Below, piece by piece: positions 1 to 62,899 of a DNA stretch of 64,000 bases. Location: IMG/VR virus record IMGVR_UViG_3300035698_020436; one strand, 5' to 3'. The stretch comes from an uncultured virus (IMG/VR IMGVR_UViG_3300035698_020436). Lineage: Duplodnaviria; Heunggongvirae; Uroviricota; Caudoviricetes. A model generated the notes under the pieces. The model saw only the letters and a program-made list of their open reading frames with translations. It was not told the DNA's origin and made no database searches. Positions within the stretch are counted from its first letter, which is position 1. Every line of letters starts with the position of its first letter. The translations under genes were made by a program, and so were the position numbers.

Positions 1-606
1 CTAAATCAGAAAAAAATTCATTCCACTACTGACAAGAACCAGACTGCTATTTTTCCAGTTTGTAAAACGGGTCAGCATGTTGTCCCACAACGAGGACTTA
101 GGTTCTGTTTGGGTCTTTTCTGGAAAAAAGATAATAGAACAAATATCTTCGTTAAACACTTTGGGTTTATTTATCATTGGCTTAATTGGTGTAGTTGGTT
201 TAGGCCAAATAACTTTTCTTTTTTCTTTTTCTCTCCATCGGAGGGTTCTAAGAAAACACTGTTCGGCTTTTCCGTAAACCTCACAGTGTTCTGCTGCAGA
301 ACCAGCCACAGCAGCAGCATGGACGGCAGTTCCAGAGTCAGCTACTTCAAACACTTCAAGATATGTCCAGTCAATAGGGATGTCTCCATAAACGAAAATA
401 GCCAAACCCCTATCCTTAGTACTCACGATCCAATTGTCAGATTGGATTTTCCTACCCCCTTTCAGACCCCTGACCATGTGGTTGTTGCCTACCTGTAGGA
501 ATGGGGTAGCTATGGGGATTCCGTGTTTAAGACCTCTCCAAATATGGTCTCCAACTTGAGGGATGTCTAAGAGTTCATAGGTTTTTGGTAGTCTGCATTT
601 TATCAT
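1..606 (-). CDS. hypothetical phage protein
   Basis: ORF with AAGGAG RBS directly downstream of the 38-bp element at 618-655; start moved from the track value 636 to ATG 606. Confidence 0.7.
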   Translation of the reverse strand: MIKCRLPKTYELLDIPQVGDHIWRGLKHGIPIATPFLQVGNNHMVRGLKGGRKIQSDNWIVSTKDRGLAIFVYGDIPIDWTYLEVFEVADSGTAVHAAAVAGSAAEHCEVYGKAEQCFLRTLRWREKEKRKVIWPKPTTPIKPMINKPKVFNEDICSIIFFPEKTQTEPKSSLWDNMLTRFTNWKNSSLVLVSSGMNFFLI

Positions 607-617
607 AGTTTGCTCCT

Positions 618-655
618 TCTTACTACAACAACCCACAACTTTCAGAAACTAAGCT
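618..655 (-). promoter_or_regulatory. 38-bp bipartite element copy 1 (putative phage promoter)
   Basis: AGCTTAGTTT-CTGAAAGT-TGTGGGTTGTTG-TAGTAAGA on minus strand. Confidence 0.75.
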
Positions 656-1274
656 AATCCAAGTCTGGTGGTGTCCAGACCGTATGGGGATATAGTAGTC
701 CTTCTGGCAAATGTATCAACTGTTCTCTCTTGATCGAACGAGACCAATCAAAATATTTCTTTTCAGGGTGTATCCAAGCTCTAGGGTACGAGACAAGTGT
801 ACTCCCTTCATGTAAGACTTTACCCTTTGGTACTCCAAGGGAGGTTTTCGTTGGATTCAGGCAAACTGCCAGACCTTTAGGAATAATGACTCTGAATCCA
901 TTCATGCTGATAACATACTCACAGGTTGTGAGCCACAGGCTGAAATGAACCAGTTCAGGGTCTTCATTTTCAGTTACTTCAAAGTAATCGTTCAGGAGTT
1001 TAACTCCATAGATGTGAATGTCATCAGCAGGGTGTATTTTCTGGTCTCCCCATTGTTTAGCTGGTATTTTATCATAATAGATACCGAACTCCGGTGTAGG
1101 GGGTGCAGGACGTTGAAAATAGACGTGGGTATGTGTGTGTGTGGATATAATGTTGATCGTCGTTCCTAGACCGTCTAAGACCCCTTTTGAGTGATTTGGG
1201 GCAGGGTATGTCCAGTCCTTCGGATGAACCCATGGAAAGAAGGATTGGAATCCTGTTGGATCGTTATTTGACAT
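654..1274 (-). CDS. hypothetical protein
   Basis: 206-aa ORF in operon orientation; stop abuts element copy 1. Confidence 0.7.
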   Translation of the reverse strand: MSNNDPTGFQSFFPWVHPKDWTYPAPNHSKGVLDGLGTTINIISTHTHTHVYFQRPAPPTPEFGIYYDKIPAKQWGDQKIHPADDIHIYGVKLLNDYFEVTENEDPELVHFSLWLTTCEYVISMNGFRVIIPKGLAVCLNPTKTSLGVPKGKVLHEGSTLVSYPRAWIHPEKKYFDWSRSIKREQLIHLPEGLLYPHTVWTPPDLD

Positions 1275-1801
1275 GTTTTTCGGCCCCTCTGTTTAGTTCC
1301 AATCTTGATCTCATTATGGCTCTCAGAGAGCTTTCGATACTTTTCGTAAAGAACTCAATCATAATTTCTGCTACTGCACCCCCTCTTATTTCCCAGAACT
1401 CCTGTTGTTTTTGGTACCTGATGATATCTTGTTCATTGTATCTGATAAAAGCATTGATTCTTTCTTCATCAGATTTGCTTGAGTCTTGAAACAGCAGGTA
1501 ATCTTCAGATAGTTGTGTTGTCATGACTGTTTCCTTTTGATTGAGGCTTCAGCAAACTCTACATCGTTAATAAGGTTTTTATAAGAAAATCTTATGTTGA
1601 AGTCAGATGTGAGGTGGATGTCTTCATGATCTATGTCAAAACTATTGCAGGTTAGTAAGAGCCAACCAAGGTCTTTTACCATGCTGCCTGTTCCTTTAAG
1701 GGCAAAGACTCTAGCAGCTAATGCTGGGAGTTTTTTACCGATTGTTTTCATGCTGTCAAAGTATTTTATAATTCCTGCTTCGTTCATGATTGTTCTCCTT
1801 T

Positions 1802-1839
1802 TCTTACTTCAACAACCCACAATAAAGAGAAACTAAGCC
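1802..1839 (-). promoter_or_regulatory. 38-bp element copy 2
   Basis: GGCTTAGTTT-N8-TGTGGGTTGTTG-AAGTAAGA. Confidence 0.75.
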
Positions 1840-2174
1840 AGAAAAGAAATTATTTGATTTCGTAAAGTTCCACCCATTCTGTTTTGATCCAGAATTTCCA
1901 TTTAGGAACACGTTTAACGGCCATGAATAATATGTCTGAGTTGTTGTAGAGGTCATCAAAGACATCATAAGCTGCCTGGAATGCTGCCTCAGCATCGTTC
2001 ATGGTGTCGTAGCGGGTTGCGTTATCAAGACCCCATATGAAATCATAGCCTTTCCTGTAAAAGTCGTTGGGGTGGTGATTTGGGTCGTATTTCAGGTATG
2101 TCGGAGTGTCATACCTGCCGGTTAAGCTCTTGATAATGATGGTTTCCTGTTTCATTATGATCTTTCCTTTTGCA

Positions 2175-2522
2175 TTACTCAATCAGTTCAGCTTTTTCTT
2201 TTGTAATAGCTGCCAAACATTTGCTTTCACACATTTCCTGATCTTTTTTTGATGTATAGAGCAGCCATATATCTGAACATTCACCTTTACAGCATGAGGT
2301 AGTGTATTTAGATTCGAGGCATTGATATATAACTCGTGACATTTTCTGATTGATATTGTTTTCGAGCAGTTCATTAAACGTCTGGTCCATATCCAGACTA
2401 TTTAGAGCTTTGCTGCATTTCTTGATGCCCACTGCTACCACAATTATCAGTGCTATAACTACAAGTATTGATGCAATAGTTACAACCCAGTCTTTTATTG
2501 ATTTTTTTGTTTCTTTAGTCAT
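2175..2522 (-). CDS. membrane-anchored Cys-rich protein
   Basis: N-terminal hydrophobic helix; C-terminal CCKGEC...CxxxC. Confidence 0.65.
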   Translation of the reverse strand: MTKETKKSIKDWVVTIASILVVIALIIVVAVGIKKCSKALNSLDMDQTFNELLENNINQKMSRVIYQCLESKYTTSCCKGECSDIWLLYTSKKDQEMCESKCLAAITKEKAELIE

Positions 2523-2555
2523 TTTCTCTCTCCAAGATTAGGGTTAATGTTTCTT

Positions 2556-2593
2556 TCTTACTACAACAACCCACAGATTAAAGAAACTAATCC
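2556..2593 (-). promoter_or_regulatory. 38-bp element copy 3
   Basis: GGATTAGTTT-N8-TGTGGGTTGTTG-TAGTAAGA. Confidence 0.7.
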
Positions 2594-2601
2594 AAGCTGG
2601 T

Positions 2602-2898
2602 TCAATAGTCCAAATTAAAATCGTCTAGTTCGTGGTATTTATTACAAACCTCATCAACAGTTTTTAGTCTTTTTGTGATGTTGACACAAGCTATTATGCA
2701 GGCCGACCGCCTGGTGTTAGTGCAGCCTCAAGAACCAAAGAAGCATTGGCCTTTGCAGCATTCTAAAACACTTGGCTCTCCGGTACAGATTAAGCCGTTG
2801 GCACAAGCTTTCTCCTCACCTATTTGGACATTTTCTTCATCCGACTCAAAACAGCCTGTAAGACTTACCACAAGTACCAGTAAAATTAAATATTTCAT
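2602..2898 (-). CDS. Cys-rich lipoprotein with in-frame TGA at codon 57 (candidate selenoprotein, or nonsense pseudogene)
   Basis: AAGGAG RBS, signal peptide with lipobox LTGC, TGA at 2730-2728, frame stays open 41 more codons to TGA at 2604-2602; not in the ORF track. Confidence 0.6.
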
Positions 2899-2909
2899 CT
2901 TTATCTCCT

Positions 2910-3401
2910 TTATTGTTTATATTTCAACATTTCTTTTTGTTCAGATATTAATCGTTTTTCCTCTGCCTTATAAGACACTCCGAACTCAGGTGATTTTTCT
3001 TGTATTGTTTCAAGGATAACATCCGAGTCTATTAGTATCTGAATACCTTGATCGACAAACTGTAAGGATTGTTTGAGTGCTTCTGATGTAAAGTCGTTAA
3101 GCTCCATTTGAGCTGCTTTTATAAGTGCTGTTGTTTTAACAATGTCTTCTCCACAGAGGTCCTTATGAAGAATACAAATTTGTTTACCGTAGATTTGAAA
3201 CTTATCTAATAACAAGATAGCCTGTAATCCGCTGTTTCTTGGGACGGGGTCAATTTTATCCCCAAGACGGAGAATATTTATCAGAACCTCAATAGCACCC
3301 AGATTACGTCCGGCCATTTTATGTAACATGGATGGCATCCATTCACCATTATTATCAATTTGCAAGGCATCAAGTTTACAATATTCACTTATAGAGCCCA
3401 T
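2910..3401 (-). CDS. hypothetical protein, paralog of 4019-4441
   Basis: shared NLGA...GD.IDP...AILLLD.F.IYG.QI..LHK..CGEDIVKT motif. Confidence 0.75.
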   Translation of the reverse strand: MGSISEYCKLDALQIDNNGEWMPSMLHKMAGRNLGAIEVLINILRLGDKIDPVPRNSGLQAILLLDKFQIYGKQICILHKDLCGEDIVKTTALIKAAQMELNDFTSEALKQSLQFVDQGIQILIDSDVILETIQEKSPEFGVSYKAEEKRLISEQKEMLKYKQ

Positions 3402-3987
3402 CACTTTCTCCCTATTAGTATTGCTTATTTGGTTCAAGAGAGAAGAATAAGCAGATGATTTTTAAGTTTGGTTTATTTTGTACGTGTTTGTCTAAAAGGG
3501 CCTGGTAGACAGCTTCTCTTGTTTCATTTTTTACTTTGACTATCCCTCTGGCAGTGTGTGTGTATTCTTTCCAGCCATCATTTACTCTTAAAGTTATTAT
3601 GTAGAACAATTTAATTGGTTCTTTCATTTTTCTCTCCGTTTTTCGTCTTCACGTTTATCGTGGGCTTTATATTCCTCTTTGTCCACAAACCAAGGCACTA
3701 TCCAACTCTGTGCAAGAGGCCGATTTTGTGAATCATAGGCTTGTTTACCACATCTCAGGGATGGTAGGTCTGGATGTTTCAGAGAATAATCTTTACCGGT
3801 CGGGTAGTTACTGAAAAAGACTTCATTTTCCCTGCATTCCGGGTGTTGGCTATCGGTACGATCATTGTAATAATTATTACCATCACCCTTTATACTGAAT
3901 AAGGGACGAGACTTATTTTTAGGTGTCCACTTTAGTTTAAACTCTTTTGTCATAATCTGTTCCTCTTTTTAAGGGTTGTCAATCACT

Positions 3988-4025
3988 TCTTACTACAACA
4001 ACCCACAAAAGTTGGAAACTAAGCC
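3988..4025 (-). promoter_or_regulatory. 38-bp element copy 4
   Basis: consensus match; its TAG is the stop of the upstream ORF. Confidence 0.75.
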
Positions 4026-4441
4026 ATTTTAGGCATGATTTCTCCAAGTTTTGGTAATCTCTCTTGAACTGTCTTAAGAACAGCATCTATATCCAGTGTG
4101 ATTTCGATACGTTGGCTAACAAACTGTACGGCTTGTTTAAGTGCCTCTCCGGTCATTTCTTCAAGATCCATCTGAGCCGAGCGTATGAGGGCTATTGTTT
4201 TTACAATATCTTCTCCACAGATGCTTTTGTGGAGAACCCAAATTTGTTCACCATAGATCTCAAACCGGTCTAATAACAGAATAGCCAGTGAGCCCCCATT
4301 TCTTGCATCTGGGTCAATTCGATCACCAAGGTTAAGAATATTCACCAAAACCTTAGTAGCACCCAGATTTCCCTTGGCCATCCTTACGATAGCATTAGTT
4401 GACCAATCCCCAGTAATTTGTAAGTCGTTTAGTTCAGGCAT
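4019..4441 (-). CDS. hypothetical protein, paralog of 2910-3401
   Basis: clear alignment by eye; GGAG RBS before ATG 4441. Confidence 0.75.
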   Translation of the reverse strand: MPELNDLQITGDWSTNAIVRMAKGNLGATKVLVNILNLGDRIDPDARNGGSLAILLLDRFEIYGEQIWVLHKSICGEDIVKTIALIRSAQMDLEEMTGEALKQAVQFVSQRIEITLDIDAVLKTVQERLPKLGEIMPKMA

Positions 4442-4694
4442 TTTTCTCCATCCAATACACATTTCTTGAACCGTTTGACGGTTTGATTGAACCCGACAAG
4501 TTTGCCTGTTAGTTCTTCATCGTAGGCAGAACAAACCCATTTCTCATCTTCTTGAATAGTAAAGACACAAAACGGGCAAGTGATTCCGTTTATAGAGCAG
4601 TGTTTTTTGTCTGCCGGTTTGATTATAACAGAACCAGGTTTTTCAAATTGTATCATTGTTTTTTCCTATTAATTGATTAGTTAAAAAATATCTC

Positions 4695-4732
4695 TCTTAC
4701 TACAACAACCCACAACTTTTCAAAACTAAGCC
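4695..4732 (-). promoter_or_regulatory. 38-bp element copy 5
   Basis: consensus match, immediately after a terminator. Confidence 0.75.
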
Positions 4733-4775
4733 AAAAAGCACAACCCCCGTAAGCAGGATTACTCACAGGGGTTGT
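4733..4775 (-). terminator. intrinsic terminator
   Basis: minus strand CAACCCCTGTGAGTA-ATCC-TGCTTACGGGGGTTG, 15-bp stem that is complete only with G-U pairs on this strand, then TGCTTTTT. Confidence 0.75.
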
Positions 4776-4930
4776 TAAAGCTTCGGTCAGTCCTACAATT
4801 AAAACAGTCCCGACTCGAACAGACTGCAAAAGGAGTCTATATCAAATACAAGAACTATCTGGCAGCTTTTGATATAGACGGAAGGATCATAGAAACCTCA
4901 AAAACAACACATGCTGCCAGCACCGCACCA
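4733..4930 (-). ncRNA. candidate structured ncRNA with pseudoknot
   Basis: no sizeable minus-strand ORF; interlocking inverted repeats 4835-4846/4868-4879 and 4859-4866/4913-4920; TATAAT upstream; terminator downstream. Confidence 0.45.
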
Positions 4931-6499
4931 TTACTATATTATACCCTACTTCTCGTAATTATAGAATTTCTTTAAGGTCATACCGTAGGTTCTCCTTTCA
5001 AGGCCAACAGCCTTGGGCAATCATCTGGGATTCTGAGCCCACTTATCATATTGTCAGGTAATACTTTCTCTTGGCAGGCATAACCAACGAAATGTTCAGT
5101 AATGACCATATCATAGCAATCAGGGCAATCACTACACCATTCTATCGTCGTGGCTGGTATCAGAACGGTATTTTTCTTCTTTTCAGTCATTCTTTGGCCC
5201 TCTCAAGGCTGCATATAAAATTTCAAGAGTGTCTTCTTCAATGGTTCCTGGAAGACGGTCGATGGTGTACTCCAACTGATTAAGTTTATCCTGCATGATT
5301 CGTTGCCACTCTCCGATATTCTGGAGATGCTCCATAGCATGTTTTGCCCAACCATCTGTCTCTGACAGGTAACCGTCTCGGCTACCGTGGTCTGGGATAG
5401 GTTCAGGATGCATGTTCAGAGCTGATTGAGCACTGATAATCTCACTGGATATTGTTTCAAGGATGTCTTTCATTCCCTTGGTATTATCTGGTTTTACAGG
5501 TGTTCCCATTATTCTACTCCTATTCCACTCCACAGTCAGGGTCGATGATAAATTCGGCATCAGCAAACAGTTCCGTGATATCAATCAACATTTTCTGGGT
5601 TTTGTTGTTTTCTTCTTGAAGGGCATACTCACGTTTGATACGTTCTAATTTCCATGCAAGCAAATGTATTCTCATACCTGCCGGTATGCCTTTGAGGGAG
5701 TCCACATTGAAGCTGATTCGTCCTACTACTAAATTACCGGGCTTGATGACTTCCAAGTCTATTTCCCAACCATCACTGTCTTTATTGGTTTTATTGTTGC
5801 CTTTCGGGGCATTGATGACACCTCTGATGGTCAAATCACCGACAGTGGTATTAAAGCCTCTGTTGTTGAATCCAGGTCTAGTTTTACCGATTTCTATTTT
5901 CATTATGCGTTTCCTTGTCCTTTCCAGTACCAGCAATGTTTTCCGATAGCTGCTAAGAGCTTGAGTTCCACGAGAACCCGACGAAAATGAGAGGTCATTT
6001 CATCATTGTGATCGAAAGCATTGTTGAAGGGGTATCCAATAATTTGGCATTTCTTCTGCCAATATTCTTTCATGACGGCTTTAAGGGTGGCATCAGGGAT
6101 GTATTCGTCAAGTTGTGGCCCGACTTCACTCATAGCCTGTTGAAATTTCTTGGCTTGGGCTTGGTCATTTGATAGTAAGGTTTGTTCATAGTTTTTCATG
6201 GCCATACTCCTTATTTGAGGGGCTTACCGACTTCAACACGAATGACTGGTCCTGAGCCGATGGTGAAGTCTTCAATACCAACGGAAACTAGAACACCACC
6301 AGTATAAGAAAAGTCTCCACAGACAACGTAGGGTCGGAACATCTGGATACTGCCATCAGGGTTGATACATTTGACCGTAGCGTGGCCGTATGACCCCTCA
6401 AGGCTTATATCAAGTACGTCACCAAGGTTGATGTCTTTCAAGTCTTGTAGTTTTTCAGGTTTCATTGTTCAACTCCTATTTTGAAGGTTTTGTTGCCGT

Positions 6500-6537
6500 T
6501 CTTACTACAACAACCCACAAAAACTAGAAACTAAGCC
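6500..6537 (-). promoter_or_regulatory. 38-bp element copy 6
   Basis: consensus match. Confidence 0.75.
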
Positions 6538-6890
6538 ACAACCTATTTATCTGGGAGGGGATGGATCATAGTGTCCATATTGAATCCTTTTAGGTTCTGT
6601 ACTGGCTACATTGAGGGTAATTGATACAGACATCTATGGATTTCTCAAAATGTTTGTTCATAATTTAATCCTTTTCTGGGTAAACAGTTGTTTCAGCATC
6701 TGCCATAAAGTCCTCTTTTTCAATAATACCCTCATCCTTGGCACACTTGGGGCACAAGACAGTACTCTCATACCCTGAAGGTGTCCAACCAATCTCACCA
6801 ATCAAACGATTGACGGTGTACGCCGGAGTCGTTACATGTATTTCTTTAGTTCTCCCACAACCTTTACAGATTATATTCAGTTTCATAATT

Positions 6891-7577
6891 TTAATCCTTT
6901 TCATCCTTGTGTTCAAGGATATTTCCAAGTTTAACTGTAAGATCCTTTATAACAGCAATCCGGGCATCCTCATAAGAGGTAATGAGCCCTTTGCTTTCAG
7001 TGTTTTCGGCTGCCTTAACCACTTTAGTCAGACCTTGAAACAGGTCTTCCAACTTGAGTAGCCCAGCAACAGCATCCCAACCTTTCCGTACATCACCAAA
7101 GAAAGCATCTATGGCAAAGTCCATAACGTCTTCTGATAGTTTGTTGTCAAATCCCATGTAATCCTGAATATTTTTCCTTATGTTGAGGCCTTTATCATTA
7201 ACAATGCCTGCTATGTTTCTTACATAGAATTCTATCAGAAATGAGATGATTTCCGGTTTCGGGATCATTTGAGGTTCATGGACCAAAGGACAGAACTTAC
7301 TTAGTTCTCCGGGCGGAGTTGCTTTTTGTTCATCCGACAAGGGTGCATAGAATGTAGTCCGACCGATATGTTCAGGGTGTTTACAGGTAGTGTAGCCTCG
7401 GACAGGTGGGTCTGATAGGGGTCTTGATAGGGGTCTGTAGCCCGGCCCCGCTGGTTTTGATAGAGGGCAATCCTCACAACGGGTGATTTTCATCTGTAGA
7501 AGTCGAGGTGTTTCTTGTTTTTCTTGTTCAAGAAATAAAGTTTTGTTTGGGTCACCTAAAGTATGTTGTGGTTTCAT
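6891..7577 (-). CDS. hypothetical Cys/His (Zn-binding-like) protein, paralog family member
   Basis: CxxCP...CxHP...CP...FLxEFY...SYxxAR shared with the N-terminus of 12289-13362. Confidence 0.7.
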   Translation of the reverse strand: MKPQHTLGDPNKTLFLEQEKQETPRLLQMKITRCEDCPLSKPAGPGYRPLSRPLSDPPVRGYTTCKHPEHIGRTTFYAPLSDEQKATPPGELSKFCPLVHEPQMIPKPEIISFLIEFYVRNIAGIVNDKGLNIRKNIQDYMGFDNKLSEDVMDFAIDAFFGDVRKGWDAVAGLLKLEDLFQGLTKVVKAAENTESKGLITSYEDARIAVIKDLTVKLGNILEHKDEKD

Positions 7578-9110
7578 AATAGTTTTCCTTAGTGAATTAT
7601 CTCCTTAGCAAGAGGGTCTACCTGTCTCATAACACTCGGCCCTTTACACATATCACGGGCAAATTCGTTAACTTTGATGATAAATTCAAGGGTGTTATAC
7701 TCAGAGTCTTGGAAACAACCCCACTCTGTAATCAGATACTGGAGGAATACAACACCTTCGATATCCCCTCTCACAGATAAAAGATTAATGTAAGCAAAGG
7801 TGTCCCAAAAGGCATCCAGTAACTCATTCGTGGCTCTGGGGTCATTTATACTATAGCCTATTCGGGTTGCTGTTGCTTCTCTTCGTTTCTTTAGTTCTTC
7901 CCGTTTCATTTTGGGAATACTCCTTTGGCACATTCCCCACCATACCGCATGAAGGATTTTTTCAGGATATCGTCTTCAAATTCTTGGTCTCGTTCGTCAG
8001 ATTGTCTCAGGGCATTGGAAATGGCAGTTGCAATCAACAAAAGTCTGCTCTGAGGTACCATTGGGGCACCGTAGTATTCAGAACGCGTGTAACACTCCGG
8101 TAGGGAAAACATACCCAGAGTGATTAGTTCTTCACGAGATACGTCAGGAGGAACTGTGATATAATTAATAATGTAGTTGTTAAGTGTAACTGTTCGGACT
8201 TCTGAACTACCTTTAACATCAGTCTCCTCATCCCATTTGACCTCTAGGACAACTTTTTGAAGGACTGAATGCCGTCTGTCCAGTTCTCCGATCAATCCGT
8301 TGATCTTCATTCTGGTTTTATTAGGTACGCTTTCCAGATCAAGGGTCTTGAAAGTGACTGTTTCATCCACATGGTAGGGTGGGTCACTTCGAGCAATATT
8401 ATATTCTCCGATAATACGGGCTTCAACGTGATACCCAGCGTTATGTTGAATCACTGTGCCTACAATTTTGATTTTCTGAAACGCGGGTTCTGTGAAGTCC
8501 CAGCGTCTAGTAGTCCCAGGTGCTTGAATTAGTCTCATATTAAAAACTTTCTGTTTTGAGTAAGTCGTATCTTGCTTTTTCCTTATTTAGTCTCGTAAAT
8601 TCTACCCCTATAGAATCCAATTCCTTCATAGCCAAATGATGAGGCATTTGAGACTCTTTAAGAGTTTTCACTCTTGATTCCAACTTTTCCATATCTTGTC
8701 TTAGGAAAAAGGCACAAGTAAATGTTTCGATTATTCCATCTGTTGTCATCAAGCCCTCCTAAAAGACAGGGTTTTTCTTTATTGTCTCTTGAGTTTTTTT
8801 GGTTGTCTCTGTTTTACCACAGAGATTACAAATCCTTGTCCATTGAGGTGTTTCAGTACCAGAAACATAATGAGGCAATCGACGGTCAATTCCCATAGTG
8901 CCTACAGGATCACCCTCGATTTGGTATCCTTTTGTAATGATCGGGTCATAGACGGGATCACTCCATTGGTGGTTGCAGTTATGCTCACAAGCATCAAGTT
9001 GTCGTTTGAGGCTTTCAAGATTATCCTCAGCTTTCGTTATTTGTTTTCGTAGGTAGCTTGCATCAATTATAGTCATCGGGTTCTCCTTTTCATAATATCT
9101 TACCCCATTT

Positions 9111-12288: not shown

Positions 12289-13362
12289 TTAAGATAATTT
12301 TTCCAAAACTTCGTCTGCTATCTCACGGGTTAATCCTGTATCGGTGTCCGTTAGGACAAGACGATCCATCAAATGGGCCATGTCAGTTTCGTCATCAAGG
12401 ATAACAAAACGGGTGTATTGAGGATGCTCTTTTAACCAAGCAGCAATTTCGTCTCCACGTTGTTTCCCATCCAGTTCCGGGGTCATACCGATCATATCAC
12501 CGGTTATCCCACGTCCAAAGAAAAAACTTAGTTCACGGCTGCTTTTCCTCCATGATGAAGAAATAACAATTTGAGCTCCTGTTTTATCAGTAATTTCATT
12601 AAGGAGTTTAACACACTGAGGTGCCATCCAGTAAATGATTTTGAGCATTAATTCTTGGTCGTCCGGCTCCATGTCTACAAGACGTTCTGTGGGTTCGGGT
12701 TTCCCAAGCTTGGCCCATTCTTTTTCAGGTTCCCAATCATCCATAGGGTTCATCACCCCATCCATGTCCAAGAATATGATCGGAGGTGGTTCCATAACGC
12801 CCCTGAGCAGCCCTACAACCTCTGTTAAGGTGTCAAAGCGAGCTTCGTCATAGGACGAGAACAAATCGTGACTCTGAGGCTTGTCAGGCGTTCCGTTTAT
12901 TTCGGATTTCAGTTTTTTATAAACGGTGGCCAGTCGGCCCATTCCTAAGATGGGGTCCCAACTATTCGGGATACGTTTGACTATCTCCTGTTTCGTCAGG
13001 TCCATCATCTTCTGTTTGACTATTTCAAAAGCTAACATTGTTTTCCCACTACCTTGAGTGAGAGCTAACATTTTTTTCCCTTCGTCTTTGATTTTTTCTT
13101 TTGTGTATGCATTCATTAAGTCCTGATAAAACTCAGACAGGAATTTGATTGTATCAGGTTCAGGGAATAATGTGTGGTCAGAAAGTGGACAGGTTGAATC
13201 TGGAGTGTCATTTTTGTAAGCTAGTTTGAGGAATTCCCCAGAAATTGGGTTATACATCCCTCGGGTGGATTTAGGGTGGTGGCAACAATCATGATGATTT
13301 TCACCCCTTCGGTTCCAAGGGCAGTCTTTACAAGATTCAATTTGAGCATATAGAGTTTTCAT
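12289..13362 (-). CDS. Cys-rich N-terminal domain fused to a HAD phosphatase of the RNA-repair (Swiss-army-knife HAD) type
   Basis: IIFLDMDGV, IVISSSWR, RGDEIAAWL, FVILDD motifs. Confidence 0.8.
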   Translation of the reverse strand: MKTLYAQIESCKDCPWNRRGENHHDCCHHPKSTRGMYNPISGEFLKLAYKNDTPDSTCPLSDHTLFPEPDTIKFLSEFYQDLMNAYTKEKIKDEGKKMLALTQGSGKTMLAFEIVKQKMMDLTKQEIVKRIPNSWDPILGMGRLATVYKKLKSEINGTPDKPQSHDLFSSYDEARFDTLTEVVGLLRGVMEPPPIIFLDMDGVMNPMDDWEPEKEWAKLGKPEPTERLVDMEPDDQELMLKIIYWMAPQCVKLLNEITDKTGAQIVISSSWRKSSRELSFFFGRGITGDMIGMTPELDGKQRGDEIAAWLKEHPQYTRFVILDDETDMAHLMDRLVLTDTDTGLTREIADEVLEKLS

Positions 13363-28152: not shown

Positions 28153-28351
28153 AAAGGAGAACAGTCATGAAAATGATTACCTTGATTTCAGTAGCAGATA
28201 AAAATAAAGCACTTCGGGTACTTAAAGATACCATAGGTGTGACTACTCAGTATAGTAAATTTATCCTTCAAAGTCTCCCCAGATACAATGCTTATGTGGA
28301 TGAAAAAACATTGAGGGTTTTTGATAAAAACAATATCTATTACAAGATGAT

Positions 28352-28389
28352 GGCTTAGTTTTGAAAAGTTGTGGGTTGTTGTAGTAAGA
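28352..28389 (+). promoter_or_regulatory. 38-bp element copy 16
   Basis: consensus match; supplies the stop of 28167-28358; precedes ligA. Confidence 0.75.
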
Positions 28390-28416
28390 AACAACTGATA
28401 ATTCAGGAGAAAAACA

Positions 28417-30369
28417 ATGAACACTACACAAATTGACCAATTAGCACTAAGAGTACGGGCTGCAAAAAATGCATATTACAATGGTAACCCTGTAATGTCC
28501 GATGCAGAATACGACACTCTGGAAGACGAACTCAGAAAAGCTGACTCGAATCACCCCGTCCTGAAAATGGTCGGTATGGCTCCAACAGGCGGTTCTTGGC
28601 CTAAAGCCAAACACGAAATACCAATGGGTTCGTTGAACAAAGCTCAGGTCAAGGCTGAAGTTGAAAAATGGATCAAAGGGGCTGCTACGGCTGGTGAAAT
28701 TGCAGTTATGGATAAACTTGATGGAGCTTCCATTGAGTTAACATACGAAAAACGTCATCTGGTTCGTGGTGCTACTCGTGGTGATGGTGATATCGGTCAG
28801 AACATAACCCGAAACATTCTGCTTATGCAGGGTGCTGTCAAGGTTTTGCCTTCTACCATTAACGGTCAACCAACCCCTGACAAAGTATATGTCCGTGGTG
28901 AAGTTATCGTATCCAAATCCCTGTTTGCCAAATTCTTCAAAGGGGAGTCAAACCCTCGTAACACTGCAAACGGAACAATGACCCGTCAAACCAACCATGA
29001 CAAATGTAAACATCTGTCCATCATTGCTTATCAGTATATGCCTGAAGGTTATGGTATGGACACCAAAAAGGCCGAACTGACTACCTTGAAGGACATCGGT
29101 TTTATCACTCCCAGATGGTCAATCGTAAGCTCTCTGGCCGAAATCGAAGCTGTCTATCAGGATTACATTAACAGTATCCGTGACGGCCTTGATTACTTGA
29201 TTGATGGTCTGGTTCTTGAAGTGAACAACAGAGACAAGAGAAATGACCTTGGTGACCTGAATGGTCGTCCTAAAGGTGCTATTGCTTACAAGTTCCCTCA
29301 TGAGTCCAAGCCGACCCACCTGAAAGCTATCCGCTGGCAGGTTGGTAACTCTGGCCGAATCACACCGGTTGCTGAGTTTGATACCGTAAATCTGGCAGGA
29401 GCTAACATTTCTCAGGCTTCGTTGCATAACCTCAGTAACATTGCTGAAATGGTGAACGAAGTCAGACCTGGATGGAAAGAACTCTGTATTGATGATTCAA
29501 TTTTGGTGAGTCGTAGAAATGACGTAATTCCCTACGTGGAGTCATTACTCTCCAGTGGTGATACGGCAGTACGTTTTAATATCCCGAAAAAATGCCCCGT
29601 ATGTGGTGAAAAACTCAGCATGAATGGTGAGTACCTTGTCTGTACGAATTCAGATGAATGTGAAGCTCAGATTATCGGAATGCTGAAACGCTGGGTAACC
29701 AAACTGGATATCAAACATATGGGTGAAGCTCTCTTGACAATGCTGATTGAAGACGGCCACATTGAAGACATTGCTGACCTCTACAGAGTTGACCCTATCA
29801 AGGTTTCAGTTATGACAATGAATGGCCGTATGGTTGGTGGAAGTGCCGACCGTGGCTTCCAGAACCTTCGTGCTAAAAAATCTATCCCTGTCGACCTCTT
29901 GGTAGGTTCCCTTGGAATCCCAATGATCGGTCGTAGTATGGCAAGAAAAATTAGTGATGCCGGATATGATACTCTCTCTAAAATGTATAAGGCTCAGATC
30001 GTTGATATTGCTCAAATCCCAGGTGTTGGCCAGACCAAAGCAGAATATTTCGTTCGTGGGTTTAGCAAAAGAATCGGTTTGATTGCCAAATTGATCCAAC
30101 ACCCCGACGATGGTGGTGCTGGTATCACCATTAAGGTCACTAAGGGGCCACTGAAGGGCAAAACTTTCTGTATGACAGGCTTCCGTGACAGTGCCTTGGT
30201 GGATGCCATTGAAGGCTCAGGTGGGACGGTGAAATCTGGTGTCAGCAAAACTCTGGATTATTTGGTTGTTCAAGACGTAACCTCAACCAGTGGCAAAGCC
30301 AAGAAAGCTGCCAAGTACGGAACTGCTATCATCAGTATTGATGAAGCCAAAAAAATGGCTGGTATCTAA
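28417..30369 (+). CDS. ligA: NAD+-dependent DNA ligase
   Basis: YY...SDAEYD, KLDG, TRGDG, RGEV, NPRN, DGLV, zinc finger, HhH repeats, C-terminal BRCT. Confidence 0.97.
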   Translation: MNTTQIDQLALRVRAAKNAYYNGNPVMSDAEYDTLEDELRKADSNHPVLKMVGMAPTGGSWPKAKHEIPMGSLNKAQVKAEVEKWIKGAATAGEIAVMDKLDGASIELTYEKRHLVRGATRGDGDIGQNITRNILLMQGAVKVLPSTINGQPTPDKVYVRGEVIVSKSLFAKFFKGESNPRNTANGTMTRQTNHDKCKHLSIIAYQYMPEGYGMDTKKAELTTLKDIGFITPRWSIVSSLAEIEAVYQDYINSIRDGLDYLIDGLVLEVNNRDKRNDLGDLNGRPKGAIAYKFPHESKPTHLKAIRWQVGNSGRITPVAEFDTVNLAGANISQASLHNLSNIAEMVNEVRPGWKELCIDDSILVSRRNDVIPYVESLLSSGDTAVRFNIPKKCPVCGEKLSMNGEYLVCTNSDECEAQIIGMLKRWVTKLDIKHMGEALLTMLIEDGHIEDIADLYRVDPIKVSVMTMNGRMVGGSADRGFQNLRAKKSIPVDLLVGSLGIPMIGRSMARKISDAGYDTLSKMYKAQIVDIAQIPGVGQTKAEYFVRGFSKRIGLIAKLIQHPDDGGAGITIKVTKGPLKGKTFCMTGFRDSALVDAIEGSGGTVKSGVSKTLDYLVVQDVTSTSGKAKKAAKYGTAIISIDEAKKMAGI

Positions 30370-37887: not shown

Positions 37888-40695
37888 ATGGATAAATATC
37901 TTCAACTCACTCAAAACATTGCAGTTTTGTCTGGTCTGTTTCATGACTGGATTAAAGCCTCGGAGTTTTTTATAACAAAACTCCGAAAAAACGAAATTGT
38001 CCAAGACCCTCTAAGACATGATTGGCTATCTGCCGTGTTTTTTTCTTCTATAGTTGGGAAACAATCCGACCTTGAATGGCTTCAACAACTTATTGATGGG
38101 AATATCCCATCAGAATTTAAAATACCTGACAACCCATTAGAAAATCTCCCAGACACAGCTGCCGTTATATTTTGGTTAATTTTAACGCATCACAGATTAC
38201 CGATAATTGATCGATATAGAGGAAAAAACTGTGGGGATTTTCGGAATCTTTTTAAGTTTATTTCGGCTGAGTGGGGATACCAACATCTTAAAACCCAAGG
38301 CTTAGAGAAATGTTTTAAATTCCCTAAAGGATTACCAGACCATTCCCCTATTTTAGTACAACACATCCAGAAAGCAGCTCAGGATTTATATAATTCTATA
38401 GGTACGCTGGAGGAAGTAATCCAAAAAAGAAATCTTCGTACAATCCTGACTCAAGCTCGTATGGCTCTCATGTTAGCGGATCATTTCCATTCGTCCCAAG
38501 ATGCTGACCCAAACTGGCCGAAGACATATCCTGTTTTTGCTAATACGTACCGAGACACTGGTAAATTAAAGCAACGGCTTGATGAACACCTTGTCGGAGT
38601 AGCTAATCAGGCAGCCTTCAATGTGAAATTTCTGCATGAGCTTGTGGACATTAATCACAAACACCAAGCCTACCCGTCACTCGTTATTAAAAGCCCCGCT
38701 GAATTTCAATGGCAAGAAGATGCTGTCACAGTTATCCGAAACCAGTATCAAAAAGGAGGCTTTTTTGGGGTCAGTATTGCCAGTACAGGAACAGGTAAAA
38801 CATTAGGTAATGCTAAAATTATGCAAGCTCTATCGAAAGACGGGAAAGGACTTCATTATACATCAGCCCTTGGACTCCGAACCTTAACCCTACAAACTGG
38901 ATTGGAATACCGTGACCGGATTGGATTAACGGATAAAGATATGGCCGTTCTGATTGGTTCTACTGACAACCTGAATCCATTCTATGCAGGTTCAGAATCT
39001 GAAGACTGTTTATTAGATAATGAATTGATTGGGGGCTTGGCAGAAGCAGGGTTATCCCCAGTATTACGAGATGAAAAGAGCTGTCGGTTTTTCCACACTC
39101 CTGTGGTGGTTTGTACTATTGACCATCTAGTTGGGGCTACGGAAACTAGAAAGGGTGGCCGGTATATCCTACCTCTCCTTCGATTGATGTCTTCTGACCT
39201 AGTTATTGATGAAATAGATAATTTCTCAAATGGAGACTCCGTTGTTATTGGCCATTTAATCCATCTTGCTGGGATGTTAGGAAGAAAAGTCCTCATTTCC
39301 TCAGCCACAATTCCTCCTGATATGGCAGAAGGGTATTTTAATGCTTATCAGGCCGGTTGGGAAGAATTTTGTAAAAACCAATCTGAAAACCCTGCTGTTA
39401 GTTGTTTCTGGACAGATGAGTTTGGAGCAACACTTGAATCTGTGGAGACCCTGACTGAGTATCGGAAATACCATCAAGAATTTGTTGAACAGCGTGTCAT
39501 AGAATTAGCTAAGAAACCAATCAGACACCGAGTTAATATAGGGGAAATCCAACCTGTTAAAAATGAAAGCCGTAAAAAAACAAAAAACAGATTTTTTAAA
39601 TCCATGACAGATTGTTGTTTCGAATTACACAAGGACAATTACACTAAAGATGCCAAAACAGGTAAATTAGTGAGTATTGGTGTTATCAGAGTCAATACTA
39701 TAAATACTTGTGTATCACTTACAAAACATCTCTTGAAAACCAAACTTCCACCTAATATCGATATCCGAACAATGGCCTACCACAGCCAACAAGTTATGGC
39801 CTTGCGTAATGTTCAGGAGACTCATTTAGATAACGTGTTGAAAAGACACAAAGGTTCTCAAGCAATTTTTGATAACCCCATCATTAGAGAGCATGTAGAT
39901 AATAGCTCGGCTGATCATGTGATATTTATTCTTGTAGCTACTTCAATCGAAGAAGTTGGTAGAGATCATGATTTTGATTGGGGTGTAATCGAACCATCCT
40001 CATTTCGGGCAATTATTCAGCTAATAGGACGTATATTACGACATAGGATGAAAAATGTTACACAACCTAATGTAACGATTATGCAGTATAACTTAAAAGG
40101 CTTGCTTGGAGACCGACTCCCTTTCAAACTCCCAGGCTATGAATCTACTCAGCATGTTTTCAATTCTCATGATATTACTAACCTCATTGATAAGGAGACT
40201 ATCTGTGAAGGTTTGAATGCTACACCAAGAATTACCAAGAACACCCCCTTAGACCCCCAAAACAAGCTGGTAGACCTCGAACACACAATCACTCATGAAA
40301 CCCTATCTGATTACACCCAACAAGGGCCAGAGAGTCTTGCAGGCTGGGTTAAGACGTTTTGGTGGATGACTGCCACACCTCAAAAAATGAATAAGTTTCG
40401 GTCAGATTATCCCTGCCTTCGAGTCTTCTTGATCCCCACGGATGATGGTCCTGTTTTTTTTGAAAAAACAAAAAGACATGGGATTCGAAAAATCGAATCC
40501 TTGTATGGAGTTAGGGTAAACAAGTCTGATGATGAAATGCCTTTGAAAAGATTATGGCTTCATAGAGATTTTGAAACTATTATTGATGGTTTGGACCTTA
40601 TGATACACGGAGAAATCAACCTACCAACGTATGGTAAGGATAAAAATGAAATTCGTTATGAGTATTCTGACCAGTTTGGGTTAATTGCAAAATAG
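37888..40695 (+). CDS. cas3: type I-F Cas3 HD nuclease-helicase lacking the N-terminal Cas2 domain
   Basis: FHDWIKA at about residue 18, DPLRHDW, THHRLP, LADH, ASTGTGKT, DEID, SSAT, EVGRDHDFD, QLIGRILRHR. Confidence 0.93.
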   Translation: MDKYLQLTQNIAVLSGLFHDWIKASEFFITKLRKNEIVQDPLRHDWLSAVFFSSIVGKQSDLEWLQQLIDGNIPSEFKIPDNPLENLPDTAAVIFWLILTHHRLPIIDRYRGKNCGDFRNLFKFISAEWGYQHLKTQGLEKCFKFPKGLPDHSPILVQHIQKAAQDLYNSIGTLEEVIQKRNLRTILTQARMALMLADHFHSSQDADPNWPKTYPVFANTYRDTGKLKQRLDEHLVGVANQAAFNVKFLHELVDINHKHQAYPSLVIKSPAEFQWQEDAVTVIRNQYQKGGFFGVSIASTGTGKTLGNAKIMQALSKDGKGLHYTSALGLRTLTLQTGLEYRDRIGLTDKDMAVLIGSTDNLNPFYAGSESEDCLLDNELIGGLAEAGLSPVLRDEKSCRFFHTPVVVCTIDHLVGATETRKGGRYILPLLRLMSSDLVIDEIDNFSNGDSVVIGHLIHLAGMLGRKVLISSATIPPDMAEGYFNAYQAGWEEFCKNQSENPAVSCFWTDEFGATLESVETLTEYRKYHQEFVEQRVIELAKKPIRHRVNIGEIQPVKNESRKKTKNRFFKSMTDCCFELHKDNYTKDAKTGKLVSIGVIRVNTINTCVSLTKHLLKTKLPPNIDIRTMAYHSQQVMALRNVQETHLDNVLKRHKGSQAIFDNPIIREHVDNSSADHVIFILVATSIEEVGRDHDFDWGVIEPSSFRAIIQLIGRILRHRMKNVTQPNVTIMQYNLKGLLGDRLPFKLPGYESTQHVFNSHDITNLIDKETICEGLNATPRITKNTPLDPQNKLVDLEHTITHETLSDYTQQGPESLAGWVKTFWWMTATPQKMNKFRSDYPCLRVFLIPTDDGPVFFEKTKRHGIRKIESLYGVRVNKSDDEMPLKRLWLHRDFETIIDGLDLMIHGEINLPTYGKDKNEIRYEYSDQFGLIAK

Positions 40696-40708
40696 AAAGG
40701 ATTTGAAA

Positions 40709-43858: not shown

Positions 43859-43870
43859 GAGAAAAAGAAC

Positions 43871-48109: not shown

Positions 48110-48140
48110 ATCCAGCTATTTCCATTTTGGAAACAGTTGA

Positions 48141-48170
48141 TCCCTGCCTTTACGGGCGGGGGTTTTTTTT
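48141..48170 (+). terminator. intrinsic terminator
   Basis: CCCTGCCT-TTAC-GGGCGGGG followed by a T8 run, directly before element copy 21. Confidence 0.8.
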
Positions 48171-48208
48171 GGCTTAGTTTCTAATTTTTGTGGGTTGTTG
48201 TAGTAAGA
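48171..48208 (+). promoter_or_regulatory. 38-bp element copy 21
   Basis: perfect consensus. Confidence 0.75.
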
Positions 48209-55076: not shown

Positions 55077-55077
55077 A

Positions 55078-61594: not shown

Positions 61595-61598
61595 CTGA

Positions 61599-62896: not shown

Positions 62897-62899
62897 AAT

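What the first reader, a model, noticed from the sequence alone, without database searches (positions are those of the whole stretch)
2602..2898. Candidate phage selenoprotein: lipoprotein with in-frame UGA and a SECIS-like hairpin
Seen: AAGGAG RBS, signal MKYLILLVLVVSLTG-C, then ...CCKGQCFFGS-TGA-GCTNTRRSACIIAC... The frame continues 41 codons and ends 8 bp before the next 38-bp element, filling the gap. A hairpin CAGGC-GGUCG-GCCUG starts 14 nt after the UGA (2713-2699), so its G-first loop begins 20 nt after the codon. The mature protein has 9 Cys besides the lipidated one; a Cys-like residue at the UGA would make 10. Knowledge: bacterial SECIS elements such as E. coli fdhF lie immediately 3' of the UGA with a GU-containing apical loop at about this distance. 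Inference: Sec insertion using host SelABCD, which would be very unusual for a phage. A plain nonsense mutation remains a real alternative because the stem is only 5 bp.
Basis: partly seen in the sequence, partly recalled or inferred. Interest (0 to 1): 0.75.

Follow-up and report, generated by a model that had tools for sequence, protein, structure and literature searches.

The report
Stop-interrupted phage lipoprotein gene, possibly selenoprotein
A small cysteine-rich lipoprotein gene of an uncultured giant phage-like element is split by one UGA stop that a distant relative ends at too and that is followed by a selenocysteine-type RNA hairpin, so it may be a first phage selenoprotein or merely a truncated gene.

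Summary
On the minus strand, 2898-2731 encodes 56 codons with a lipobox. UGA lies at 2730-2728, 41 more open codons follow, and a second UGA lies at 2604-2602. A CAGGC-GGUCG-GCCUG hairpin sits at 2713-2699.

The UGA is real: it is identical in a second metagenome contig and in contigs of four further runs. The element uses UGA as an ordinary stop, so there is no global recoding.

The part behind the UGA looks coding. Its codon usage equals the upstream part, it ends 8 nt before the next promoter-like element as other genes do, and homolog P0003 (92 aa) reads straight through it (10 of 19 identical just after the site).

A second homolog, P0004 (55% identical), ends at exactly the same residue, which suggests an old, shared stop.

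The hairpin meets the published bacterial SECIS constraints only marginally. About 1-2.5% of TGAs in the window do so, and 8 of 3000 synonymous recodings give one as good.

Against selenocysteine:
- P0003 has no Cys at the site.
- The stem is 5 bp.
- No Rfam SECIS matches.
- The host and the rest of the genome are unknown.

My odds: UGA decoded about 0.5 (Sec about 0.33, other read-through about 0.16); plain termination about 0.45. The DNA of P0004 would decide.

The parts
2905..2910 (-). Shine-Dalgarno AAGGAG, 6 nt before the ATG. It overlaps the TAA stop (2912-2910) of the upstream gene by one base.
   Evidence: Read directly.
2731..2898 (-). ORF part 1, codons 1-56. It holds the signal peptide MKYLILLVLVVSLTG, the lipobox Cys16, and a Cys-rich stretch ending ...CCKGQCFFGS.
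   Evidence: The identical 56-aa product P0002 is on record from 11 contigs. Homologs P0003 and P0004 align over all of it.
2728..2730 (-). In-frame UGA (codon 57), the candidate recoding site.
   Evidence: Identical in L001 and in contigs of 4 of 4 further runs laid. Homolog P0004 ends at the residue just before this position.
2699..2713 (-). Hairpin CAGGC-GGUCG-GCCUG: 5-bp stem and 5-nt loop starting GGU. The stem begins 14 nt after the UGA. SECIS-like.
   Evidence: -7.6 to -8.3 kcal/mol. It is built from rare codons AGG 0.14, CGG 0.13 and TCG 0.05. A hairpin as good arises in 8 of 3000 synonymous recodings.
2605..2727 (-). ORF part 2, codons 58-98 (GCTNTRRSACIIACVNITKRLKTVDEVCNKYHELDDFNLDY), open and coding-like.
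   Evidence: Codon-usage score. Residues 58-76 are 10 of 19 identical to P0003. AF2 predicts helices 61-75 and 81-85, with block pLDDT 85 and 84.
2602..2604 (-). Second UGA, the end of the long frame. An in-frame TAG follows five codons later (2589-2587).
2556..2594 (-). Copy of the 38-nt promoter-like element (GGCTTAGTTTC-N6-TTGTGGGTTGTTGTAGTAAGA type) that precedes the next gene (start 2522).
   Evidence: 17 copies in the window, and 0 of 100 shuffles reach that. Spacing statistics.
2175..2522 (-). Next gene: a 115-aa membrane-anchored Cys-rich protein that shares only the CCKGxC motif with the candidate. Paralogy is weak.
   Evidence: 100 of 2000 shuffles score as well.

Best explanation
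The 297-nt frame 2898-2602 is one intact gene for a secreted, lipid-anchored, Cys-rich helical protein of about 98 aa (about 82 aa mature). It lies in the early, promoter-studded region of an uncultured huge phage-like element.

Codon 57 is an old, shared in-frame stop, and a fraction of ribosomes decode it rather than terminate. Two products would result: a 56-aa form and the full-length form.

The mechanism I favour is selenocysteine insertion. When the ribosome has UGA in its A site, the alternative pairing of nt 3-12 is inside the mRNA channel. The 15-nt hairpin that starts 14 nt downstream is then free to present its GGU loop to the host's SelB-GTP-Sec-tRNA(Sec). That would give a U-G-C motif in the loop between helix 2 and helix 3.

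What is shown:
- The anatomy.
- That the UGA is real.
- That the downstream frame is coding-like.
- One read-through homolog, and one homolog ending at the same residue.
- That the hairpin fits the bSECIS constraints and depends on rare codons.

What is inferred:
- That P0004's end is a homologous stop codon.
- That the UGA is decoded at all.
- That Sec, and not another residue, is inserted.
- That the host has SelABCD.

My odds: UGA decoded 0.5. Within that, Sec is about 0.33 and non-Sec read-through about 0.16.
For: 1. The extension is coding.
- In-frame codon score is 0.118 bit/codon, the same as upstream (0.111). It sits at the 15th percentile of true in-frame windows, and about 1% of off-frame windows reach it.
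- No in-frame ATG or GTG follows the UGA, and the only TTG is codon 39 of the 41 (codon list). A separate gene is therefore excluded.
- With the extension the stop lies 8 nt before the promoter-like element. In 10 of the 16 other copies this distance is -7 to +10 nt. With the 56-aa ORF the gap is 134 nt.

2. HMMER over 1.84 billion representatives found 4 proteins at E<=0.001: the 56-aa self, P0003, P0004 and a repeat protein, P0005, which I dismissed. A word-index search with the alignment found the same three family members and no more.
- P0003 (92 aa) runs uninterrupted through the site. Identity to the window protein is 18 of 35 in the mature N part, 10 of 19 in residues 58-76 (ACIIACVNITK against ACKIACIKITK) and 3 of 22 in the tail.
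- Just behind the stop, constraint is therefore as strong as before it.

3. P0004 (55 aa) is 30 of 55 identical and has no indel between GEPS and its end. It stops after ...CIFDS, the same column as ...CFFGS-UGA. The three proteins are about equidistant at 54-56%. A stop at the same column in two of them argues for an old or maintained stop.

4. The hairpin meets all four constraints of the bacterial SECIS consensus as quoted in the review PMC13188914 (passages read):
- loop 3-9 nt: here 5;
- stem 4-16 bp: here 5;
- G in the first two loop positions with G[G/U]: here GGU;
- spacing 16-37 nt: here 19;
- energy <= -7.5 kcal/mol: here -7.6 and -8.3.
The false-positive rate per TGA is 72 of 2880, or 26 of 2880 with G[G/U]. 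It is the only passer among 36 gene-terminal TGAs.

5. The loop motif GGUC sits at nt 23-26 from the U of UGA. In E. coli fdhF, read here from K-12, it sits at nt 22-25.

6. The stem uses rare codons. Resampling synonymous codons by the element's own usage gives a hairpin as good in 8 of 3000, and an MFE as low in 94 of 3000.

7. AF2 on the 3-sequence alignment gives one helical unit drawing on both halves: helices 20-37, 44-51, 61-75 and 81-85, pTM 0.61, with the confidence dip exactly at 56-58.

8. With Sec or Cys at 57 the mature protein has an even number of Cys-type residues, 10.
Against: - The one homolog that reads through has no Cys opposite codon 57 or opposite Cys59. MAFFT places a 4-residue gap at FGSU. 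[quoted passage not shown]
- The stem is only 5 bp, has no bulged U, and reaches the energy cut-off only just.
- In isolation the 41- and 61-nt stretches prefer a competing fold.
- No Rfam SECIS family matches at E<=10, while the same search finds the fdhF SECIS at 87 bits. Those models are gene-family specific.
- The kind of stop in P0004, and whether its downstream frame is open, are unknown because its DNA could not be fetched.
- The host is unknown. SelA was found in 1 of 5 genomes that share the CRISPR repeat core.
- No tRNA(Sec), suppressor tRNA or sel gene lies in the 64-kb window or in L001. The rest of the roughly 402-kb genome was not available.
- There is no catalytic rationale for Sec in a structural-looking, disulfide-rich secreted protein.
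- No phage selenoprotein appeared in three literature searches or in the review, so the prior is low.
- All assemblies are identical, so population data cannot show selection on the site.
Confidence: 0.5

Rival explanations
1. Plain termination in a truncated or decaying gene. A nonsense mutation turned a sense codon into TGA. The candidates are Cys TGY, Trp TGG, or Arg CGA/AGA; Arg is what P0003 has there in a left-anchored alignment. Only the 56-aa lipoprotein is made. The 41 downstream codons are a remnant that has not yet decayed, and the hairpin is a chance feature.
For: - This is by far the commonest cause of an in-frame stop, so the prior is high (established knowledge).
- TGA is an ordinary stop in this element: 36 of 113 crude genes end in TGA, some with ATGA overlaps.
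- P0003 has no Cys at the site.
- The tail, residues 77-98, is only 3 of 22 identical to P0003.
- The hairpin is short and only marginally meets the energy cut-off, and 2.5% of all TGAs pass the same test.
- A clonal population would carry a recent mutation in every sample.
Against: - P0004 ends at the same column. That requires either two independent hits on one codon or an old stop.
- An old stop is hard to square with an open, coding-like extension that is 10 of 19 identical to P0003 right behind the stop.
- The hairpin depends on rare codons (8 of 3000).
- The truncated product would have 5 Cys after the lipid Cys and would lose helix 3 and its CxxxC.
Confidence: 0.4
2. UGA read-through without selenium. 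This share is already counted inside the 0.5 of the best explanation. Candidates are a low-level near-cognate reading of UGA, as in the Q-beta coat/A1 pair (recalled), or a suppressor tRNA encoded elsewhere in the huge genome. Either would give a minor full-length form beside the 56-aa form.
For: - It rests on the same evidence for a maintained stop with a coding extension.
- It needs no Cys homolog, so it fits P0003 better than Sec does.
- A TAG lies five codons behind the terminal TGA and would catch read-through there.
- Huge phages often carry suppressor tRNAs (recalled).
Against: - It does not explain a rare-codon hairpin at SECIS spacing.
- No tRNA lies in the window or in L001.
- No other gene in the window shows a convincing in-frame TGA with a coding extension.
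- The base after the UGA is G, which to my recollection is not the leakiest context.
Confidence: 0.16
3. A naturally short gene. The ancestral product is the lipoprotein of about 55 aa, as in the window and in P0004. The 123 nt behind it are an untranslated spacer with a structured RNA. P0003's long form arose secondarily, when a 12-nt deletion removed the stop.
For: - Two of three family members end at this column.
- The chance of 41 stop-free codons is not negligible; I estimate roughly 0.08 from composition, not from a call.
- A GC-rich hairpin 14 nt behind a stop could be an RNA-stability or processing element.
Against: - The codon usage of the spacer is gene-like in exactly this frame.
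- Four Cys occur in 41 codons, with CxxxC and ITK conserved in P0003.
- AF2 predicts a confident amphipathic helix there.
- A 134-nt gap before the promoter-like element is atypical; 10 of 16 other copies have 10 nt or less.
- The hairpin has no U-run, unlike the clear terminator upstream of the element copy at 48188.
Confidence: 0.05

Closest known systems
Bacterial selenoprotein genes with an intragenic SECIS (E. coli fdhF type; bSECIS consensus of Zhang and Gladyshev as quoted in PMC13188914)
   Same: - An in-frame UGA inside a continuing ORF.
- A stem-loop directly downstream, with a small apical loop that starts GGU.
- 19 nt of spacing, within the 16-37 range.
- GGUC one nucleotide off its position in fdhF.
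- A neighbouring Cys (U-x-C).
   Different: - The stem is 5 bp with no bulge or lower helix, and it sits at the energy cut-off.
- No Rfam SECIS model matches.
- No Cys-containing homolog exists.
- The protein is a secreted lipoprotein of no known redox family.
- The carrier is a phage-like element whose host and Sec machinery are unknown.
Programmed UGA read-through in phage genes (Q-beta coat/A1 protein; recalled, not checked here)
   Same: A phage gene in which a UGA separates a short major product from a C-terminally extended form in the same frame.
   Different: - Q-beta is an RNA phage and the extension is a virion component.
- No downstream hairpin is known to me as a requirement there.
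- Here the extension completes a small disulfide-rich domain rather than adding a new one.
Small phage lipoproteins of early regions, such as T5 Llp or Cor-type superinfection-exclusion proteins (recalled; an analogy of role only)
   Same: - A short signal peptide with a lipobox and a small Cys-containing mature part.
- A position among early genes behind repeated promoters.
   Different: No sequence, profile or fold similarity to any named family was found. The function is therefore only guessed.
Stop-codon-reassigned phages (TGA=Trp or TAG=Gln, codes 4 and 15)
   Same: An in-frame stop codon in a phage ORF.
   Different: This does not apply. 36 of 113 crude genes end in TGA. Coding density is already 93% under code 11. 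Only this gene has a convincing in-frame TGA.

Membership tests
Bacterial selenoprotein gene (Sec-UGA plus bSECIS) | In-frame UGA with the reading frame continuing as coding sequence | tested here: met
   - 41 open codons with gene-like codon usage.
- Homolog P0003 reads through the site.
- The gene end then fits the local layout.
Bacterial selenoprotein gene (Sec-UGA plus bSECIS) | Stem-loop meeting the bSECIS consensus: loop 3-9 nt, stem 4-16 bp, G in the first two loop positions, 16-37 nt from the UGA, energy <= -7.5 kcal/mol | tested here: met
   The constraints are taken from PMC13188914. The hairpin has a 5-nt loop GGUCG, a 5-bp stem, 19 nt of spacing, and -7.6 and -8.3 kcal/mol. It is only just over the energy bar. 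72 of 2880 TGAs in the window pass my ungapped version of the test.
Bacterial selenoprotein gene (Sec-UGA plus bSECIS) | Homologs carry Cys (or Sec) at the aligned position | tested here: not met
   P0003 is the only homolog that spans the site. It has a 4-residue gap or a non-Cys residue there and no Cys between C50 and C61. This rests on a single homolog.
Bacterial selenoprotein gene (Sec-UGA plus bSECIS) | UGA and SECIS conserved in orthologs | tested here: inconclusive
   P0004 ends at the same column. Its stop codon, its downstream frame and any hairpin could not be read.
Bacterial selenoprotein gene (Sec-UGA plus bSECIS) | Host (or element) provides selA, selB, selC and selD | not testable with these tools
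   - No genome is held for the window.
- No sel gene or tRNA lies in the window or in L001.
- The CRISPR repeat core occurs in many lineages.
- SelA was found in 1 of 5 such genomes.
Rfam SECIS families (SECIS_2 to SECIS_5 type models) | Covariance-model match | tested here: not met
   No SECIS hit at E<=10 in 2400-3000. Control: E. coli fdhF gives SECIS_2 at 87.1 bits and SECIS_3 at 35.8 bits.
Bacterial lipoprotein | N-terminal signal peptide ending in a lipobox [LVI][ASTVI][GAS]C (motif recalled) | tested here: met
   MKYLILLVLVVS-LTGC, read. The lipobox Cys is kept in P0003 (LIGC) and P0004 (LTAC). No signal-peptide predictor was run.
Stop-codon-reassigned phage (code 4-like) | TGA rarely used as a stop; many genes with in-frame TGA | tested here: not met
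   36 of 113 crude genes end in TGA, and coding fraction is 0.93 under code 11. There is one convincing in-frame TGA.
Programmed stop-codon read-through | Conserved stop followed by a conserved coding extension; an extended product is detectable | tested here: inconclusive
   A stop at the same column occurs in 2 of 3 family members, and the extension is conserved against P0003. The product was not testable; no RNA holder was listed.

The most novel reading that the evidence does not exclude
A bacteriophage-encoded selenoprotein. It would be a secreted lipoprotein with a U-G-C selenylsulfide motif, and its UGA would be decoded by the host's SelB through a minimal 15-nt SECIS. The site would be old enough to be shared with a 55%-identical relative, and a third relative would have lost it by a 12-nt deletion. 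It would make a phage's early-gene expression depend on the host's selenium status.
Probability: 0.33. Interest if true: 0.9.

Novelty: new variant of a known kind. Interest (0 to 1): 0.68.

Why it matters
- No selenoprotein of a bacteriophage turned up in three full-text searches. A 2026 review of prokaryotic selenoproteomes does not contain the words phage or virus (term search).
- If the UGA is read as Sec, this would extend Sec recoding to phages. It would give a natural minimal SECIS and tie a phage surface or periplasmic function to selenium supply.
- If it is non-Sec read-through, it would be a rare DNA-phage case of a two-product gene made by a leaky UGA.
- Either way it shows that gene callers cut such genes. 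All databases hold only the 56-aa form.
- If it is only a truncated gene, the finding is ordinary. The test that separates these readings is cheap.

Tried and rejected
- **GenBank phages.** There was no DNA match to 1-8000 and only chance tblastn hits.
- **IMG/VR.** There was no relative of the protein and no exact DNA match. The alignment query gave only L025, an unrelated lipoprotein that matches in the signal peptide alone.
- **Metagenome contigs.** Only L001 was found. It is identical to the window and so carries no comparative information.
- **Whole genome.** None is held and the record is not held. tRNA(Sec), suppressor tRNAs and sel genes outside the window could therefore not be sought.
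- **Global stop-codon reassignment.** Rejected.
- **Other TGA-ended genes with long open extensions** (53735-54310, 28188-28424). Their extensions are not convincing.
- **Paralogy with the neighbouring 115-aa protein.** Only CCKGxC is shared. 100 of 2000 shuffles score as well, and 794 of 2000 for the post-UGA part. I do not use it.
- **P0005** (2248 aa, E 5.9e-7). It is a repeat protein matched in short Cys/Gly-rich stretches. I dismissed it by eye.
- **MFE-versus-shuffle tests.** They are not significant, but they are equally weak for the true fdhF SECIS.
- **Rfam.** No SECIS family matched.
- **Function searches.** Pfam and PHROGs gave nothing for the protein, its homologs or its neighbours. 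Foldseek against the PDB gave nothing at E<=0.001.
- **ESM Atlas.** With the natural homolog P0003 all hits were under 0.9.
- **Host.** Csy3 found no relative in genome contigs. The repeat core is spread over many Gammaproteobacteria and others. SelA was found in 1 of 5 of those genomes.
- **Sequencing runs.** No RNA holder was listed. The four runs laid are contigs with no variants.
- **Earlier findings of this scan.** Nothing.

Full report
**What is there.**
- On the minus strand an AAGGAG (2910-2905) precedes ATG 2898. The ORF starts MKYLILLVLVVSLTG-C, a lipoprotein signal with the lipobox Cys at codon 16, and runs to ...ECCKGQCFFGS.
- Codon 57 is TGA (2730-2728). Read through, the frame continues for 41 codons (GCTNTRRSACIIACVNITKRLKTVDEVCNKYHELDDFNLDY) to a second TGA at 2604-2602. 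An in-frame TAG follows five codons later.
- The hairpin CAGGC-GGUCG-GCCUG is at 2713-2699. Its stem starts 14 nt after the codon.
- Cys sits at 16, 32, 38, 47, 48, 52, 59, 67, 71 and 85, with the UGA at 57.

**Context.**
- The window is 41% G+C and about 93% coding under code 11. Most of its products have no family.
- It carries a type I-F Cas set (Cas3-like helicase, Csy1-4) with a long CRISPR array, an NAD-dependent DNA ligase, a PARP-like protein, RNA ligase and repair genes, and sugar-nucleotide genes.
- The 56-aa product is on record from 11 contigs, the longest 402,136 bp.
- No virion gene lies in the window. 'Huge phage' is therefore likely but not shown.
- Seventeen copies of a 38-nt element (GGCTTAGTTTC-N6-TTGTGGGTTGTTGTAGTAAGA) each sit 10-35 nt before an RBS and start codon. 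They look like promoters of a phage-specific polymerase or sigma factor.
- TGA is a normal stop here: 36 of 113 crude genes end in it. Global reassignment is out.

**Is the UGA real?**
- Yes. A 114-kb metagenome contig (L001) is identical over 8898 nt, including the codon.
- Nineteen salt-lake or marine runs were listed as holding the stretch or part of it.
- In all four runs I laid, a contig covers 2728-2730 with no difference.
- The population is clonal, so this excludes error but says nothing about selection.

**Is the part behind the UGA coding?**
- A codon log-odds model trained on 74 long genes of the window scores the extension at 0.118 bit/codon in this frame. The upstream part scores 0.111.
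- The other five frames of the extension score between -0.22 and -1.53. Fifteen percent of true in-frame 41-codon windows score lower. About 1% of off-frame windows score as high; these controls include windows with stops.
- The only in-frame start codon in the extension is a TTG at codon 39 of the 41. It cannot be a separate gene.
- With the extension the gene ends 8 nt before the next promoter-like element. In 10 of the 16 other copies the upstream stop lies -7 to +10 nt from the element. With the 56-aa ORF the gap would be 134 nt.

**Homologs.**
- The word-index search found only the 56-aa self.
- HMMER over 1.84 billion representatives found 4 proteins at E<=0.001: the self, P0003 (92 aa, E 9e-14), P0004 (55 aa, E 1e-9) and a 2248-aa repeat protein that I dismissed. 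A profile search added nothing. Each homolog is on one short contig.
- P0003 is uninterrupted and aligns to residues 1-90. Identity is 12 of 16 in the signal peptide, 18 of 35 in the mature N part, 10 of 19 in residues 58-76 (ACIIACVNITK against ACKIACIKITK) and 3 of 22 in the tail. The stretch directly behind the stop is as conserved as the stretch before it.
- Around the site P0003 is four residues shorter. MAFFT puts the gap at F-G-S-U. By hand, other placements put Asn, Met or Arg opposite the UGA. In no placement does P0003 have a Cys opposite U57 or C59.
- P0004 has no indel from GEPS onward and ends at ...CIFDS, the same column as ...CFFGS-UGA.
- The three proteins are about equidistant at 54-56% identity. 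The tree cannot say which state is ancestral.
- A gene cut by a contig end at exactly this column would be a coincidence of about one in a hundred (my estimate). I therefore take P0004's end to be a stop codon.

**The hairpin.**
- A 2026 review (PMC13188914, passages read) quotes the bacterial SECIS consensus: loop 3-9 nt, upper stem 4-16 bp, G in the first two loop positions (mostly G followed by G or U), 16-37 nt between UGA and loop, and energy <= -7.5 kcal/mol.
- The candidate has a 5-nt loop GGUCG, a 5-bp stem, 19 nt of spacing and -7.6 kcal/mol, or -8.3 kcal/mol with its flanks. It passes, but only just on energy.
- In my ungapped implementation 72 of 2880 TGA triplets in the window pass, and 26 also have G[G/U]. 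Of the 36 TGAs that end crude genes, only this one passes.
- GGUC in the loop of a hairpin of at least 5 bp at SECIS range occurs at 21 of 2885 TGAs. Shuffled windows average 10.6.
- In E. coli K-12 fdhF, read here, the loop GGUC occupies nt 22-25 from the U of UGA. In the candidate it occupies nt 23-26.
- The stem codons are rare ones: AGG 0.14, CGG 0.13, TCG 0.05, GCC 0.24 and TGC 0.25 of their families. Re-drawing synonymous codons by the element's own usage gives a hairpin as good in 8 of 3000 draws and an equally low MFE in 94 of 3000. This suggests selection on RNA structure, provided the stretch is coding.

**Against the hairpin as a SECIS.**
- The free 41- and 61-nt RNAs prefer a competing fold that pairs nt 3-12 with 23-31. 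That pairing cannot exist while a ribosome sits on the UGA; this is inferred from the known ribosome footprint.
- MFE z-scores are -0.83 and -1.15, but the true fdhF SECIS scores only -1.22.
- Rfam finds no SECIS at E<=10, whereas it finds fdhF's at 87 bits. Those models are specific to their gene families.

**Fold and function.**
- AlphaFold2 on the three-sequence alignment gives mean pLDDT 69.6 and pTM 0.61, with helices 20-37, 44-51, 61-75 and 81-85. Confidence drops at 56-58.
- The model therefore uses both halves, with the UGA in the loop between helix 2 and helix 3. I could not inspect coordinates, so Cys pairings are not known.
- No Pfam, PHROG, PDB-fold or Atlas relative was found.
- An early-expressed envelope lipoprotein, perhaps for superinfection exclusion as in T5 Llp (recalled), is a guess from position and type only.

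**Weighing.** I started with a prior of roughly 100:1 for a nonsense mutation over Sec. I then applied these factors:
- the shared end of P0003-independent homolog P0004, about 15-fold for any maintained-stop reading;
- the hairpin, about 10- to 40-fold for Sec;
- the missing Cys in P0003, about 4-fold against Sec.

These are judgements, not computations. They leave Sec at about 0.33, other read-through at about 0.16, a truncated or decaying gene at about 0.40, and a naturally short gene at about 0.05.

**Host.**
- The host is not resolved. Csy3 found no close relative in the species genomes.
- The repeat core occurs in Arsukibacterium, Kangiellaceae, Thiothrix, Wohlfahrtiimonas, Pseudomonas and others.
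- SelA is present in 1 of 5 of those genomes tested.
- No tRNA lies in the window or in L001.

**Literature.**
- Three full-text searches listed no phage selenoprotein (listings and abstract starts seen).
- The review contains neither 'phage' nor 'virus'.
- Subscription journals are not covered by these searches.

**Verdict.** The Sec interpretation is plausible but unproven, and one of its expected features, a Cys homolog, is missing. The nucleotide sequence of the P0004 locus is the single most decisive missing datum.

Noticed in passing
window, 17 sites, e.g. 618-638, 3988-4008, 28369-28389, 48188-48208 (core); full element about 38 nt: A highly conserved element, GGCTTAGTTTC-N6-TTGTGGGTTGTTGTAGTAAGA, lies 10-35 nt upstream of RBS and start codons on both strands. 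There are 17 copies, and 0 of 100 shuffles reach that. It is probably a promoter for a phage-specific polymerase or sigma factor, since it does not look like a sigma-70 promoter. Many more copies appear in the sequencing runs.
   Followed up: partly
window 37888-44437 and 44559-46435: A type I-F CRISPR-Cas effector set (Cas3-like helicase-nuclease, Csy1, Csy2, Csy3, Csy4) plus an array of about 30 repeats (GTGAACTGCCGAGTAGGCAGCTTAGAAT type). No Cas1 hit appeared among the 88 products scanned. A crude ORF at 44604-44795 is an artefact of translating the array.
   Followed up: partly
window 46562-48106: A 515-aa protein with WGR, PARP regulatory and PARP catalytic domains. That is a eukaryote-like PARP architecture on a phage-like element.
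   Followed up: no
window 2910-3437 and 4019-4462: Two paralogous early genes (175 and 147 aa), about 70% identical over 300 nt, with no family. One of them lies directly upstream of the candidate gene.
   Followed up: no
window 2175-2522: A 115-aa membrane-anchored protein with 7 Cys. It shares the motif CCKGxC, followed by CxxxC and ITK, with the candidate. The similarity is not significant overall (100 of 2000 shuffles).
   Followed up: yes
window 12289-13362, 54994-56247, 57840-58349: RNA-repair-type genes are scattered in the window: the HAD domain of 'Swiss Army Knife' RNA repair proteins, an RNA ligase with an OB fold, and a phosphoesterase.
   Followed up: no
window 58519-64000: A minus-strand block of sugar-nucleotide and glycan genes: DegT-type aminotransferase, NAD-dependent epimerase/dehydratase, two hexapeptide acyltransferases, a GT-D-like glycosyltransferase and UDP-glucose/GDP-mannose dehydrogenase.
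   Followed up: no
window 48140-48190: A clear intrinsic terminator (GC-rich hairpin followed by a T-run) lies directly upstream of one promoter-like element. It shows what terminators look like here, and the candidate's hairpin lacks the T-run.
   Followed up: partly
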